Part shown: one piece after another, positions 49,301-52,300 of the stretch
How positions within the stretch are numbered: the first letter of the stretch is position 1
How the letters are laid out: the number at the start of each line of letters is the position of its first letter
NCBI RefSeq assembly: GCF_988243305.1
Contig: NZ_OZ547136.1
Length of the DNA stretch: 64,000 nt
Strand: one strand, 5' to 3'
Position numbers: made by a program

Positions 49301-52300
49301 TCGGCGAACCGAAAACCGATATCGACAAGATTCGTACCTGGAAAGAGAAAGTGATCAATCAGCTGACCGGTGGTCTGGCTGGTATGGCGAAAGGCCGCAA
49401 AGTCAAAGTGGTCAACGGTCTGGGTAAATTCACCGGGGCTAACACCCTGGAAGTTGAAGGTGAGAACGGCAAAACCGTGATCAACTTCGACAACGCGATC
49501 ATTGCAGCGGGTTCTCGCCCGATCCAACTGCCGTTTATTCCGCATGAAGATCCGCGTATCTGGGACTCCACTGACGCGCTGGAACTGAAAGAAGTACCAG
49601 AACGCCTGCTGGTAATGGGTGGCGGTATCATCGGTCTGGAAATGGGGACCGTATACCACGCGCTGGGTTCACAGATTGACGTGGTTGAAATGTTCGACCA
49701 GGTTATCCCGGCAGCTGACAAAGACATCGTTAAAGTCTTCACCAAGCGTATCAGCAAGAAATTCAACCTGATGCTGGAAACCAAAGTTACCGCCGTTGAA
49801 GCGAAAGAAGACGGTATTTATGTGACGATGGAAGGCAAAAAAGCACCCGCTGAACCGCAGCGTTACGACGCCGTGCTGGTAGCGATTGGTCGTGTGCCGA
49901 ACGGTAAAAACCTCGACGCAGGCAAAGCTGGCGTGGAAGTGGACGACCGTGGTTTCATCCGCGTTGACAAACAGCTGCGCACTAACGTACCGCACATCTT
50001 TGCTATCGGCGATATTGTCGGTCAGCCGATGCTGGCACACAAAGGTGTTCACGAAGGTCACGTTGCCGCTGAAGTTATCGCCGGTAAGAAACACTACTTC
50101 GATCCGAAAGTTATCCCGTCCATCGCCTATACCGAACCAGAAGTTGCATGGGTGGGTCTGACCGAGAAAGAAGCGAAAGAGAAAGGCATCAGCTATGAAA
50201 CTGCCACCTTCCCGTGGGCTGCTTCTGGTCGTGCGATCGCTTCCGACTGCGCAGACGGTATGACCAAGCTGATTTTCGACAAAGAATCTCACCGTGTGAT
50301 CGGTGGTGCGATTGTCGGTACTAACGGCGGCGAGCTGCTGGGTGAAATCGGCCTGGCAATCGAAATGGGTTGTGATGCTGAAGACATCGCACTGACCATC
50401 CATGCGCACCCGACTCTGCACGAGTCTGTGGGCCTGGCGGCAGAAGTGTTCGAAGGTAGCATTACCGACCTGCCGAACCCGAAAGCGAAGAAGAAGTAAT
50501 TTTTCGTTTGCCGGAACATCCGGCAATTAAAAAAGCGGCTAACCACGCCGCTTTTTTTACGCCTGCATTTTACCTTTCCATTCTCCTTGCTCCACGCTCA
50601 GACAACCGTTCCCGTATCGCTGACCGTTGCTCGTTATTCAGCCTGGCAGTACGGTTACTGTCGTTTAGACGTTGCGGGCGGCTCTCCTGAACTTTCTTCC
50701 GAAAAACCTGACGTTGCTCAGGTGATGCTGATTGAACACGCTGGCGGGCGTTATCACGTTGCTGTTGGTTCAGTGGGCGCTGCTGTACTTTTTCCTTAAA
50801 CACCTGGCGCTGCTCTGGTGATGCGGACTGAATACGCTCACGCGCTGCCTCTTTTCGCTGCTGGTTCTGCGGGTTAGTCTGCATTTTCTCGCGAACCGCC
50901 TGGCGCTGCTCAGGCGAGGCGGACTGAATACGCTCACGCGCTGCCTCTCTTCGCTGCTGGATCTGCGGGTTAGTCTGCATTTTCTCGCGGACTGCCTGGC
51001 GCTGCTCAGGAGAGGCCGACTGATAACGCTGACGAGCGGCGTCCTTTTGTTGCTGGGTCAGTGGTTGGCGACGGCTGAACTCGCGGAAGTCGTCATAGCT
51101 CCCATAATGTTCCGCTTCATTAAATCGCTGTGCCGCAGCCTGACGTTGAGTATCTCGCGTAATGACTGGCGCAGTGTGTGTTCGTTGCTGAAACTGACTT
51201 GCTGCTGCCTGACGCTGACTGTCGCGCGATAGAGCAGGTAACTGCGTGGCGCTCATGCCGCCGTTGACATCGGTTTGGTGAAACCGCTTTGCCATATCCT
51301 GATCATGATAGGGCACACCATCACGGTAGTTTGGATTGTGCCGCCATGCCATATTGTTATCAGTAAGATGCTCACCGGTGATACGGTTGAAATTGTTTAC
51401 GTCGATATTGATGTTGTCGCCGTTGTGTTGCCAGCCATTACCGTCACGATGACCGCCATCGTGGTGGTGATAATCATCATCGTCATGATGATGATGGTCA
51501 TGATCGTCGTCATCCCAGTCGATGCTGCTGAATAGCGCGTACGTGGTAGCAACGCCCATGCTATAGCCGAATCCGCGCACAAAGCTGTCAACAAACGGTT
51601 CTCCGGCTGGTGGTGGCAGATAAACTGGCGGATAAGCGGTATTGGCCCAACTGCCGTAAACCACGTTTGGGTTGTAGTTCGGAATATAAACCACATCCGG
51701 ATTGGCGGGCTCAATGGTTATTACGGTCGGTGCAGGTTCTGCGACGACGGGGCTGGACGTAGAAACGGTATTTGATTGTGTGACAGGGGCGTTGGCGGGC
51801 TGATTTACCGGTACGACTTTTTTCGTTGTCGTGATGATCTTTTGTTCAGTTGATGACTTCAGCGAGCCGGTTTGTTGCGCCAGTTGCCGCAATCGCTGTA
51901 CCGAGTCCATCACGTCCTGCGGCTGCGCCAGAAAAGCATCGCCCAGGTTTTGCACCCATTGCGGGTTTTCGCCCATCAATGCCATCAACTGTGGAAAGGC
52001 CACCAGTGATTTGACGCTGGCGTCCCAGGGCTGGTCAGATACCGCCTGAATAGCAGCATCGCCTTGTTTAAGTGGATTATCGTGCGACCATTGCACTGCT
52101 TGAGCAACGTTTGTCGGATAGGTTGATGCCATCAGCACTTGCGAAAGTAGGGCGTCGGGATACAGCGCGACGGGCGCGACCCATTGATCTATTTGTGCAG
52201 TGCTGAATGCAGATTTGACGACGGCGGGTGTTACGGGAGGTGCGGAAACCGTTGCAGGAAGCGTAACTGCGGAGATGTCAGGCGCAGCCAGTTGTGTCGA

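What the first reader, a model, noticed from the sequence alone, without database searches (positions are those of the whole stretch)
50800..51500. yacH carries 96-bp tandem repeats and an unusual His/Asp-rich tract
Within yacH the DNA shows about three near-identical 96-bp units (encoding SASPEQRQAVREKMQTNPQxQQRxEAARERIQ) plus degenerate flanking copies, and further along (51430-51500 on the plus-strand coordinates) a run encoding DDDHDHHHHDDDDYHHHDGGH. Tandem in-frame repeats are prone to copy-number variation between strains, and the His/Asp run looks like a metal-binding low-complexity segment. The function of this protein is not established to my knowledge.
Basis: seen in the sequence. 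Interest (0 to 1): 0.35.

Follow-up and report, generated by a model that had tools for sequence, protein, structure and literature searches.

The report
Variable repeats in E. coli yacH
The E. coli gene yacH, an exported envelope protein of unknown function, carries an in-frame 96-bp repeat whose copy number differs between strains and a disordered His/Asp-rich loop; both are real but ordinary features of a known, uncharacterised protein family.

Summary
yacH (window 50570-52423, minus strand, 617 aa, Pfam DUF3300) has a period-96 tandem array. Units 1 and 2 are 94% identical; units 3 and 4 are degenerate. It also has a 22-residue tract with 19 Asp/His (51449-51514).

Copy number varies among complete E. 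coli genomes: about half have 4 units and about 45% have 3; 5-unit alleles exist. The changes are recurrent and always in frame. The His/Asp tract also varies in length, and an 8-bp deletion within it inactivates yacH in most S. Typhimurium strains.

Each 32-aa unit is predicted to form two helices. The array belongs to a basic Gln/Arg-rich tail (net +22) that is typical of the whole DUF3300 family. The His/Asp tract is a disordered, enterobacteria-specific expansion of a conserved loop. The gene is under purifying selection (dN/dS 0.13-0.18). The core fold has no solved relative.

Function is still unknown. Published data link yacH to CpxR/Rob envelope-stress regulation and cationic-peptide sensitivity. 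Metal binding is plausible but untested.

Side findings:
- Escherichia has lost the usual DUF2950 partner gene.
- Nine E. coli genomes carry an E. fergusonii yacH allele.
- yacH is a local divergence hotspot.

Overall this is a known gene, of modest interest.

The parts
50570..52423 (-). yacH coding sequence (617 aa plus stop), DUF3300 family
   Evidence: ORF list; Pfam PF11737 E=1.9e-77; RefSeq annotation of near-identical loci
52334..52423 (-). N-terminal export signal or signal-anchor (aa 1-30; hydrophobic core aa 9-30)
   Evidence: This is the only strongly hydrophobic stretch (KD19 maximum 2.04). 88/91 distant homologs have an equivalent N-terminal hydrophobic segment and about 7 have clear lipoboxes. 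It is highly conserved across enteric genera. Cleavage was not tested.
51425..52201 (-). Pfam DUF3300 match (aa 75-333): eight-helix N-half, variable linker, beta-rich 'YVPxYNPxVYG...YPP' block, Gly-rich hydrophobic segment
   Evidence: pLDDT is >90 for aa ~70-200 and 230-270. dN/dS is ~0-0.08.
51728..51853 (-). Hypervariable Pro/Ala/Thr-rich linker inside the domain (aa 191-232)
   Evidence: Lowest-identity bin versus the K-12-like allele (77%). dS is ~0.95 between the window and K-12 alleles with dN/dS 0.17. Two haplotypes are visible. pLDDT is 61-73.
51449..51514 (-). His/Asp tract DDDDHDHHHHDDDDYHHHDGGH (aa 304-325): a disordered loop made of CAT/GAT/GAC codon runs
   Evidence: 19/22 D/H, with 0 of 20,000 shuffles reaching this. 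pLDDT is <50. Length variants of +2, +8, -1 and -13 aa occur in E. coli. The loop is a median 30 aa and not D/H-rich in distant homologs. An 8-bp deletion here makes yacH a pseudogene in S. Typhimurium.
51269..51448 (-). Conserved post-loop block (aa 326-385): 'NINIDVNNFNRI' and 'WRHNPNYRDGVPY' motifs
   Evidence: Consensus of 101-113 homologs. pLDDT is 79-93 for aa ~341-380, lower at the two ends.
50573..51268 (-). Basic Gln/Arg-rich C-terminal tail (aa 386-617; net charge +22, pI 11.5)
   Evidence: The tail is net positive in 92/97 distant homologs and 86/97 have R/K within the last 3 residues.
51020..51115 (-). Degenerate proto-unit upstream of the array (aa 437-468)
   Evidence: 52-54% DNA identity to units 1-2 in register
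50924..51019 (-). Repeat unit 1 (aa 469-500) SASPEQRQAVREKMQTNPQIQQRREAARERIQ
   Evidence: predicted helices 472-483 and 486-500
50828..50923 (-). Repeat unit 2 (aa 501-532), 94% identical to unit 1; this is the unit missing in 3-unit alleles and duplicated in 5-unit alleles
   Evidence: helices 504-515 and 518-533
50732..50827 (-). Repeat unit 3 (aa 533-564), 64-67% DNA identity to units 1-2
   Evidence: helices 536-547 and 552-564
50636..50731 (-). Repeat unit 4 (aa 565-596), degenerate
   Evidence: helix 568-580
50573..50635 (-). Conserved C-terminal end NEQRSAIRERLSERGARRMER (aa 597-617)
   Evidence: Conserved in all Escherichia alleles, including the E. fergusonii type. An Arg-rich C-terminus is a family-wide feature.

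Best explanation
yacH encodes an exported envelope protein of the widespread DUF3300 family.

Shown here:
1. The protein has a conserved folded core (aa ~75-385) under strong purifying selection.
2. That core is interrupted by a disordered His/Asp loop specific to the enterobacterial lineage.
3. It is followed by a strongly basic Gln/Arg-rich tail.
4. The 96-bp repeats encode 32-aa helix-turn-helix modules of this tail. Helix A starts at 'SPEQ' and helix B at 'NPQ'.
5. Module number changes between strains (3, 4 or 5) and always stays in frame. The trinucleotide-like CAT/GAT/GAC runs of the His/Asp tract also gain and lose codons, and occasionally lose 8 bp, which kills the gene.

Inferred:
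- Because units 1 and 2 are 94% identical, replication slippage or unequal recombination adds or removes whole modules.
- The tail tolerates this because its role depends on bulk properties (length, positive charge, helicity, Arg-rich end), not exact sequence. This matches the family-wide pattern of basic tails with lineage-specific repeats.

Inferred function:
- The mature protein sits in the periplasm or envelope.
- The basic tail binds a polyanionic partner. In other bacteria this may be the usually acidic DUF2950 protein encoded next door. In Escherichia, which has lost DUF2950, it may be anionic envelope components.
- The His/Asp loop binds divalent metal ions.
- Together these would influence envelope cation balance. 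That would fit the published CpxR/Rob control, repression by cationic peptides, and the increased protamine survival of a yacH deletion mutant.
For: Architecture and family:
- Pfam DUF3300 E=1.9e-77.
- 9,539 50%-identity clusters.
- Conserved motifs in 101-113 homologs.
- AF2 pLDDT >90 for the core and <50 for the His/Asp tract.

Export:
- The single strong hydrophobic segment is at the N-terminus.
- 88/91 homologs have an N-terminal export-type segment, and some have lipoboxes.
- Rhizobial members were reported to carry signal peptides (PMC4653623).

Repeats as helix pairs:
- (pLDDT 75-87).

Copy-number and length variation:
-.
- Recurrence: a 0.2% background difference between a 3-unit and a 4-unit allele.
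- E. fergusonii also has 618-aa and 584-aa forms.

His/Asp tract as a slippage site:
-.
- Salmonella 8-bp deletions (PMC10048834; PMC3391293).

Constraint:
- dN/dS is 0.13-0.18 overall, ~0-0.08 in the core and 0.08-0.25 in the repeats.
- A match covering at least 80% of the gene length is present in 5415/5426 genomes.

Family-wide basic tails:
- Net positive in 92/97, median +15, with an Arg-rich end in 86/97.
- Other lineages have their own tail repeats.

Partner:
- DUF2950 lies directly downstream in 5/5 non-Escherichia enterics and in metagenomic loci.
- It is acidic in 4/5.

Physiology (literature):
- CpxR-regulated; a yacH deletion mutant survives protamine better; repressed by protamine and cecropin A (PMC9600279).
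- Down in a rob mutant (PMC7537768).
- Ampicillin-induced promoter (PMC8865558).
- Induced by a cathelicidin peptide (PMC6737244).
Against: - There is no experimental localisation, metal-binding or interaction data for YacH or any DUF3300 protein in the searchable literature.
- A Gly/Ala-rich segment before the His/Asp loop is borderline for a transmembrane helix in about half of the homologs (KD19 >=1.6 in 44/97), although it scores only 0.78 in E. coli. A bitopic topology with a cytoplasmic tail is therefore not excluded.
- The tail's helical prediction has only moderate confidence.
- The protamine phenotype comes from one study, and the authors' own reading of it differs.
- yacH is dispensable. 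It is inactivated in several lineages (S. Typhimurium; E. coli E69 yacH::IS1).
- Tail-DUF2950 pairing rests only on opposite charges and gene adjacency.
Confidence: 0.55

Rival explanations
1. Bitopic membrane protein. After signal-peptide cleavage the N-terminal DUF3300 helical domain is periplasmic. The Gly-zipper-like hydrophobic segment (aa ~283-301) spans the inner membrane. The His/Asp tract, the WxHxPxHRxGVPY block and the basic repeat tail are then cytoplasmic, where the Arg/Gln-rich helices would bind nucleic acid or another anionic cytoplasmic partner.
For: The segment reaches the classical KD19 >=1.6 threshold in 44/97 homologs and has a small-xxx-small pattern in 72/97. The tail is net positive in 92/97 and ends in Arg, which fits the positive-inside rule.
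Against: - In E. coli the segment scores only 0.78, and only 3/97 homologs reach 2.0.
- No K/R lies within 15 residues on either side, and the downstream flank is strongly acidic.
- AF2 models the segment as short strands inside the folded core. The post-loop block is also modelled with high confidence as part of one compact unit (pTM 0.71).
- YacH overproduction did not raise DNA damage in a genome-wide screen.
Confidence: 0.17
2. A decaying gene. After Escherichia lost the DUF2950 partner, yacH became functionally redundant. The repeat-number changes, His/Asp indels and high allelic diversity would then simply reflect relaxed constraint on the way to pseudogenisation.
For: - DUF2950 is absent from all Escherichia loci examined, and 5,426 genomes have no DNA-level match.
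- yacH is a pseudogene in most S. Typhimurium strains examined and is disrupted by IS1 in E. coli E69.
- Deletion is harmless or beneficial in several assays.
- Nucleotide divergence among E. coli alleles is 3-8%, against 1-3% in the flanks.
Against: - dN/dS is 0.13-0.18 overall, ~0 in the core and 0.08-0.25 in the repeat region.
- All length variants examined are in frame.
- A match covering at least 80% of the gene length is present in 5415/5426 complete genomes.
- The N-terminus, core motifs and C-terminal end are conserved from E. coli to E. albertii and E. fergusonii.
- The gene is regulated by CpxR and Rob.
Confidence: 0.15
3. Diversifying, contingency-type variation. YacH is exposed to phages, colicins or host immunity. 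Its variable linkers, repeat number and allele exchange would then be maintained by frequency-dependent selection, as in repeat-bearing surface antigens.
For: - Linkers are hypervariable (aa 35-74 and 191-232), with two old haplotypes.
- Whole-allele replacement by the E. fergusonii gene occurs in 9 genomes, with sharp boundaries at the gene ends.
- Unit-number changes are recurrent.
- Some sources predict the protein to be 'extracellular' or 'outer membrane'.
Against: - dN/dS is well below 1 even in the variable linker (0.16-0.17) and is 0.19-0.94 in the short N-terminal linker, on few sites.
- There is no evidence of surface exposure.
- There is no match to PADLOC defence models.
- The repeat units are too long and too few for classical phase variation, and the changes keep the frame.
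Confidence: 0.1
4. Assembly artefact: the repeat count in the window is a collapse or expansion produced by short-read assembly.
For: None found.
Against: The identical 1854-bp, 4-unit arrangement is present in 148 complete genomes at >=99% identity. The 4-unit length class also recurs across unrelated complete genomes, including K-12 MG1655. Units 1-4 differ enough (6-50%) to be placed unambiguously.
Confidence: 0.01

Closest known systems
DUF3300 (Pfam PF11737) exported proteins, usually paired with DUF2950 (PF11453)
   Same: Full-length HMM match; N-terminal export signal; the same conserved motifs; a basic C-terminal tail with an Arg-rich end. In Kluyvera, Raoultella, Buttiauxella, Enterobacter and RIT691 the ortholog occupies the same acnB-lpdA slot.
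   Different: Escherichia lacks the downstream DUF2950 partner. It has a longer His/Asp loop (55-56 aa against a median of 30 aa) and an Escherichia-specific 32-aa SASPEQRQ repeat array, where other enterics have ~18-aa QNPTxQQQQRR repeats. No member of either family has been characterised.
Periplasmic LTXXQ-motif stress proteins Spy / CpxP / ZraP (resemblance recalled from my own knowledge)
   Same: They are Cpx-linked envelope-stress proteins. They are built of helical hairpins whose helices start with an (L/S)(T/S)PEQ-type cap. ZraP also has a His-rich metal-binding end.
His/Asp-rich flexible loop of the periplasmic zinc-binding protein ZnuA, and His-rich tails of metal chaperones such as SlyD or Hpn (from my own knowledge)
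   Same: A disordered run of alternating His and Asp, inserted as a loop in an otherwise folded and probably periplasmic protein, with length that varies between species.
   Different: The YacH core has no similarity to the ZnuA fold or to any solved fold. Metal binding is untested. No metal-responsive regulation of yacH was found in the literature searched.
Polymorphic minisatellites used for E. coli/Shigella MLVA typing (e.g. ms11, also a 96-bp unit)
   Same: A tandem repeat of about 100 bp whose copy number differs among E. coli isolates (PMC8215070).
   Different: It is not the same locus. The ms11 primers are absent from the window and from the yacH region of other strains, and no paper links MLVA with yacH. 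The yacH array is coding, in frame, and has only two near-identical units, so its range is narrow (3-5 units).
Pfam DUF3106
   Same: There is a weak match of the tail to this uncharacterised family (E=0.0037).
   Different: The score of 18.1 bits is below the 24.3-bit gathering threshold. The match is not reproduced with full-length alleles, so it is probably only a compositional or short-motif resemblance.

Membership tests
DUF3300 (PF11737) | Pfam HMM match above the gathering score over the whole model | tested here: met
   260.2 bits against a cut-off of 25; model positions 2-227 of 227; aa 75-333. The same holds for other Escherichia and Kluyvera alleles.
DUF3300 (PF11737) | N-terminal export signal (signal peptide or lipobox) | tested here: met
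   Hydropathy only: KD19 of 2.04 at aa 11-29. 88/91 homologs have the equivalent segment and about 7 have clear lipoboxes. Cleavage and localisation are not testable here.
DUF3300 (PF11737) | Co-localised downstream DUF2950 gene (reported as universal in rhizobia, PMC4653623) | tested here: not met
   It is present in 5/5 non-Escherichia enterics and in L009-L011, L013 and L008. It is absent from the window and from all Escherichia loci (tblastn). blastn found no match in 5,426 E. coli genomes. L012, L015 and L016 also lack it, so the pairing is frequent but not obligatory.
DUF3300 (PF11737) | Basic low-complexity C-terminal tail with an Arg-rich end (a feature derived here, not part of the Pfam definition) | tested here: met
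   Window tail: net +22, pI 11.5, ends RRMER. Among distant homologs, 92/97 are net positive and 86/97 have R/K in the last 3 residues.
Polymorphic coding tandem repeat (VNTR) | Head-to-tail copies with a unit length that is a multiple of 3, in frame | tested here: met
   Period 96 = 32 codons
Polymorphic coding tandem repeat (VNTR) | Copy number differs between strains of the species | tested here: met
   3, 4 and 5 units. In 100 stratified rows there are about 53 four-unit and about 45 three-unit alleles.
Polymorphic coding tandem repeat (VNTR) | Changes are recurrent rather than a single old event | tested here: met
   The 3-unit 2013C_3277 and 4-unit C-SRM-3 alleles differ by 0.2% outside the array. 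The window (4 units) is closest to a 3-unit allele. Recombination cannot be formally separated from slippage.
LTXXQ / Spy-CpxP-ZraP periplasmic chaperones | Pfam LTXXQ (PF07813) or Metal_resist (PF13801) match, or a Spy-like fold | tested here: not met
DUF3106 (PF11304) | HMM score above the gathering threshold | tested here: not met
   18.1 bits is below 24.3; absent.
His-rich metal-binding loop (ZnuA-loop / Hpn-like) | His/Asp-dominated, intrinsically disordered segment | tested here: met
   19/22 D/H; pLDDT <50
His-rich metal-binding loop (ZnuA-loop / Hpn-like) | Demonstrated binding of Zn/Ni/Cu or other divalent ions | not testable with these tools
   Needs ITC, ICP-MS or IMAC retention of the native protein.
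MLVA locus ms11 (96-bp unit) | Published primers flank the array | tested here: not met
   Neither primer is found in the 64-kb window at <=3 mismatches or in L001-L003 at <=4 mismatches.
Anti-phage defence systems (PADLOC) | Match to any PADLOC-DB model | tested here: not met
   0 families at E<=1

The most novel reading that the evidence does not exclude
DUF3300, usually together with DUF2950, is an uncharacterised and very widespread two-protein exported envelope module (about 9,500 50%-identity clusters) built on a fold with no solved relative. Its basic tail docks onto the acidic DUF2950 partner. In Escherichia the partner was lost. The orphaned YacH was then remodelled with a helical SASPEQRQ repeat array and an enlarged His/Asp loop, so that it acts alone as a metal- and polyanion-binding modulator of envelope cation bridging. 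In that role it would sensitise cells to cationic antimicrobial peptides, with tail length (3-5 modules) tuning the effect between strains.
Probability: 0.1. Interest if true: 0.55.

Novelty: already known. Interest (0 to 1): 0.3.

Why it matters
The finding is a correct description of an annotated E. coli gene of unknown function (a 'y-ome' gene), so it changes little on its own. It still has some practical value:

1. The yacH array is a common, in-frame length polymorphism, split roughly 50/45 between 4 and 3 units. Together with the unusually high sequence diversity of the gene, this could serve as a cheap typing marker. It should also be kept in mind when short-read assemblies or pan-genome pipelines split yacH into many 'different' proteins.
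2. The His/Asp tract is a recurrent site of frameshift inactivation, which explains the yacH pseudogenes in Salmonella Typhimurium.
3. The analysis gives a concrete, testable frame for a large uncharacterised family: exported core, optional His/Asp loop, basic tail, and an acidic DUF2950 partner that Escherichia has lost. The family has no structural relatives and has a published link to Cpx/Rob envelope stress and cationic-peptide sensitivity.

Tried and rejected
- Spy/CpxP/ZraP (LTXXQ) membership of the tail: no Pfam hit and no meaningful structural match. Rejected.
- DUF3106 and RskA_N hits on the tail are below threshold and inconsistent between alleles. I treat them as resemblance of the 'SPEQR' helix-cap motif only.
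- I suspected from memory that the array is the 96-bp MLVA locus ms11. The published primers do not map to the window or to K-12-like yacH regions. Rejected.
- NCBIfam and PADLOC: no matches.
- A DNA-related role for the Arg/Gln-rich tail: YacH was a non-hit in a DNA-damage overproduction screen.
- Promoter and terminator scans of the region gave nothing above shuffled expectation.
- The genome-contig scan with the single protein returned only 8 loci because its patterns were too specific. Broad taxonomy and Salmonella synteny therefore could not be examined.
- The first protein search was saturated by E. coli alleles and gave no distant relatives. Those came from the representative search.
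- A literature search for experimental localisation of YacH found nothing.
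Full report
**What is there.** The window region 48.5-55.4 kb carries aceF, lpdA, a 617-codon ORF on the minus strand (50570-52423) and acnB. The ORF is yacH. It matches Pfam DUF3300 over the whole model (aa 75-333, 260 bits), has no NCBIfam or PADLOC match, and is annotated 'yacH, DUF3300 domain-containing protein' in near-identical RefSeq loci.

**Checking the repeats.** Tandem Repeats Finder reports a period-96 array, either 3.6 copies at 79% match or 2.6 copies at 87% match. The repeat finder gives four in-register copies. In protein register the units are aa 469-500, 501-532, 533-564 and 565-596 (window 51019-50636). 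Only units 1 and 2 are near-identical (94% DNA and protein). Unit 3 is 64-67% identical to them at DNA level, and unit 4 is 46-55% identical to units 1-3. A vestigial unit precedes the array and a partial one follows it.

**Checking the His/Asp tract.** The tract DDDDHDHHHHDDDDYHHHDGGH is aa 304-325, at 51449-51514, which is 15-20 nt from the stated coordinates. It has 19 D/H in 22 residues. No shuffle out of 20,000 exceeded 11, and no other ORF in the window exceeds 8.

**Is the copy number variable?** Yes.
- megablast against 5,426 complete E. coli genomes finds the gene in 5,425.
- Two samples, evenly spaced down the similarity ranking (100 rows), gave about 53 four-unit alleles. These are 1848-1854 bp, plus three of 1815 bp that have a shortened His/Asp tract. 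Ten of the 53 were inferred from split alignments of K-12-type strains.
- The same samples gave about 45 three-unit alleles: 1758 bp, 1764 bp (including ST131) and 1746 bp.
- A 648-aa allele with five units exists (P0009), as does a 662-aa allele with a different 45-aa duplication just upstream (P0017).
- All variants examined are in frame.
- Unit number does not follow allele lineage. A 3-unit and a 4-unit allele differ by only 0.2% outside the array, and the 4-unit window allele is closest to a 3-unit allele. The changes are therefore recurrent.
- E. fergusonii shows the same behaviour (618 versus 584 aa).
- An assembly artefact is excluded. The 4-unit, 1854-bp arrangement of this very allele recurs in 148 complete genomes at >=99% identity.

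**The His/Asp tract is also unstable.** It is encoded by runs of CAT, GAT and GAC with internal 8-9-nt direct repeats. E. coli alleles with +2, +8, -1 and -13 residues occur. In S. Typhimurium an 8-bp deletion inside the tract (GATCATCA / GATGATCT) makes yacH a pseudogene in UK-1, 14028s, SL1344, D23580 and a milk isolate, relative to LT2 (PMC3391293; PMC10048834).

**Protein anatomy.**
- The only strongly hydrophobic stretch is aa 9-30, an export signal or anchor.
- AlphaFold2 with a 101-sequence alignment gives a confident core (pTM 0.71). It has eight helices at aa 75-184 and a beta-rich block at aa 233-301. After the His/Asp loop comes a block at aa ~335-385 containing the family motifs NINIDVN and WxHNPxxRxGVPY, with pLDDT mostly 80-98.
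- The His/Asp tract itself is below pLDDT 50, i.e. a disordered loop.
- In the full-length model each 32-aa unit forms two helices, 472-483 and 486-500 and so on, with pLDDT 75-87. The helices begin at the cap-like SPEQ and NPQ motifs.
- The tail (aa 386-617) has net charge +22, pI 11.5, 19% Gln and 17% Arg. The core and the loop are acidic.

**Family context.** An exhaustive HMMER search finds 9,539 50%-identity clusters. Across about 100 diverse full-length relatives the same order of elements recurs: export signal, helical N-half, variable Pro/Ala/Thr linker, YVPxYNPxVYG...YPP block, Gly-rich hydrophobic segment, D-x-D-W loop, (I/V)N(I/V)DVN, WxHxPxHRxGVPYRD, and a long low-complexity tail.
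- The tail is net positive in 92/97 relatives (median +15).
- 86/97 have Arg or Lys among the last three residues, and 40 end in 'RR'.
- Many lineages have their own tail repeats (P0130, P0162, P0209, P0235). Other enterics use an ~18-aa QNPTxQQQQRRxNAKSH unit.
- The SASPEQRQ unit is confined to Escherichia: E. coli, E. albertii, E. fergusonii and a cryptic-clade representative.
- The loop that holds the His/Asp tract is a median 30 residues and not His-rich in distant relatives. It is 44-59 residues and His/Asp-rich in most of the enterobacterial-type relatives examined (Buttiauxella is the exception, with one His), and independently His-rich in 11/97 others.

**Selection.** Nei-Gojobori estimates between E. 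coli alleles give:

| Region | dN/dS |
|---|---|
| Whole gene | 0.13-0.18 |
| Core | ~0-0.08 |
| Repeat region | 0.08-0.25 |
| Internal linker | 0.16-0.17 |

The region boundaries in that run were approximate: the bin labelled HD was misplaced, and the true tract lies within the DUF3300-C bin. The gene is functional and constrained. The variation is mainly indels of whole modules or codons plus synonymous change.

**Neighbourhood and partner.** A published survey of rhizobia noted that DUF3300 lies upstream of DUF2950 'universally', that both carry signal peptides, and that both are induced in symbiosis (PMC4653623).
- I confirmed the pairing in metagenomic loci (overlapping stop/start in L009-L011; also L013 and L008).
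- I also confirmed it in five enteric genera. There the pair occupies exactly the acnB-lpdA slot where E. coli has yacH alone.
- All six Escherichia loci examined lack DUF2950, with no remnant detectable by tblastn.
- A sensitive blastn search with the Kluyvera gene finds nothing in 5,426 E. coli genomes.
- DUF2950 partners are acidic in 4 of 5 cases (net -12 to -24). A charge-based interaction with the basic tail is therefore conceivable but untested.

The tail is not a member of the LTXXQ/Spy/CpxP family.

The literature places yacH in envelope-stress circuits:
- It is CpxR-regulated and up 3.9-fold in one of the two Cpx-activating conditions (cpxA24 mutation, NlpE overexpression).
- It is repressed by protamine and cecropin A.
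- A yacH deletion mutant survives protamine better (PMC9600279).
- It is strongly down in a rob mutant (PMC7537768).
- Its promoter is induced by ampicillin (PMC8865558) and by a cathelicidin peptide in UTI89 (PMC6737244).
- Deletion modestly improves recombinant expression (PMC7376861).

My best reading, marked as inference, is an exported envelope protein whose basic helical tail binds an anionic partner and whose His/Asp loop binds divalent metal ions. The main structural rival is a bitopic topology with a cytoplasmic tail. It draws on a Gly/Ala-rich segment that passes a transmembrane hydropathy threshold in 44/97 relatives. That segment scores only 0.78 in E. coli, lacks flanking positive charges, and is modelled inside the fold.

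**Other things seen.**
- yacH is a local divergence hotspot. The window allele is about 94% identical to the K-12 type, while the flanks are 97-100% identical. Only 148 genomes carry the window allele at >=99% identity.
- The internal linker exists as two old haplotypes (dS about 0.95).
- Nine E. coli genomes, all identical at this locus, carry a yacH that is 99% identical to the E. fergusonii protein. It is only about 75% identical to other E. coli alleles, which makes it more distant than the E. albertii allele. The boundaries are sharp at the gene ends, indicating interspecies allelic replacement between the conserved lpdA and acnB flanks.
- E. coli E69 has yacH disrupted by IS1.

**Verdict.** The metal-binding idea remains a reasonable but untested guess. 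The object itself is a known, annotated gene of an uncharacterised but well-populated family, and its repeat and low-complexity features are of ordinary kinds. Interest is modest. The more useful outputs are the testable architecture and partner model for DUF3300/DUF2950 and the population-level description of yacH variability.

Noticed in passing
L003 3239-5098 (E. coli AST85, NZ_AP043644); corresponds to window 50570-52700: Nine of 5,426 complete E. coli genomes, all 100% identical at this locus, carry a yacH allele that is 99% identical to the E. fergusonii protein and only ~75% identical to other E. coli alleles (dS saturated, versus 0.06-0.19 in the flanks). The boundaries are sharp at the gene ends and include the yacH-acnB intergenic region. 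This indicates interspecies allelic replacement.
   Followed up: yes
window 50570-52423 versus flanks 49075-50499 and 52778-55375: yacH is a divergence hotspot within E. coli. Alleles differ by 3-8% at nucleotide level, against 1-3% in lpdA and acnB. The window's allele is a minority type (148 genomes at >=99% identity; 5,095 fall in the 90-95% band).
   Followed up: partly
window 51728-51853 (aa 191-232): The Pro/Ala/Thr-rich linker inside the DUF3300 domain exists as two old haplotypes (dS ~0.95 between the window and K-12 alleles; dN/dS 0.17). The window type resembles the E. albertii sequence in places. The origin (ancient polymorphism or introgression) is not resolved.
   Followed up: partly
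window 50500-50569; L020-L024 downstream of the yacH homolog: In Kluyvera, Raoultella, Buttiauxella, Enterobacter sp. ENT03 and RIT691 a DUF2950 gene lies between yacH and lpdA. Escherichia has only 70 bp there and no DUF2950 anywhere detectable. The partner proteins are acidic in 4/5 cases, opposite in charge to the basic YacH tail.
   Followed up: yes
L018 4798-5547 (E. albertii NBRC 107761): E. albertii has a 750-bp spacer between yacH and lpdA. The spacer has no match in the E. coli window and no DUF2950 remnant. It contains an 86-aa ORF with a signal-peptide-like N-terminus on the opposite strand.
   Followed up: no
L019 4098-4866 (E. coli E69, CP089930): yacH is split by a 769-bp insertion with IS1 terminal repeats, InsA/InsB-like ORFs and a 9-bp target duplication (GGTTTGCCT). 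This is a natural yacH knockout.
   Followed up: yes
window 46858-48750 (aceF): blastn self-matches of ~210-590 bp at ~78% identity occur inside aceF. They correspond to the three tandem lipoyl domains and Ala/Pro linkers of the E2p subunit, a well-known internal repeat. One K-12-like locus and strain 118UI differ in aceF position by 117 bp relative to lpdA, which hints at length variation upstream of lpdA.
   Followed up: no
window 52334-52423 (aa 1-30 of YacH): The N-terminal hydrophobic region and the following 'LY(I/V)KSR' are almost invariant from E. coli to Kluyvera, although the next 40 residues are hypervariable. That is unusual for a cleaved signal peptide and may mean it is retained as a membrane anchor.
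   Followed up: partly
P0133, P0207, P0254 (representative proteins): Three long DUF3300 'proteins' run on into a DUF2950-like sequence after a stretch of odd composition. They are probably gene-calling read-through or frameshift artefacts across the adjacent DUF3300-DUF2950 genes in GC-rich genomes, not true fusions.
   Followed up: no
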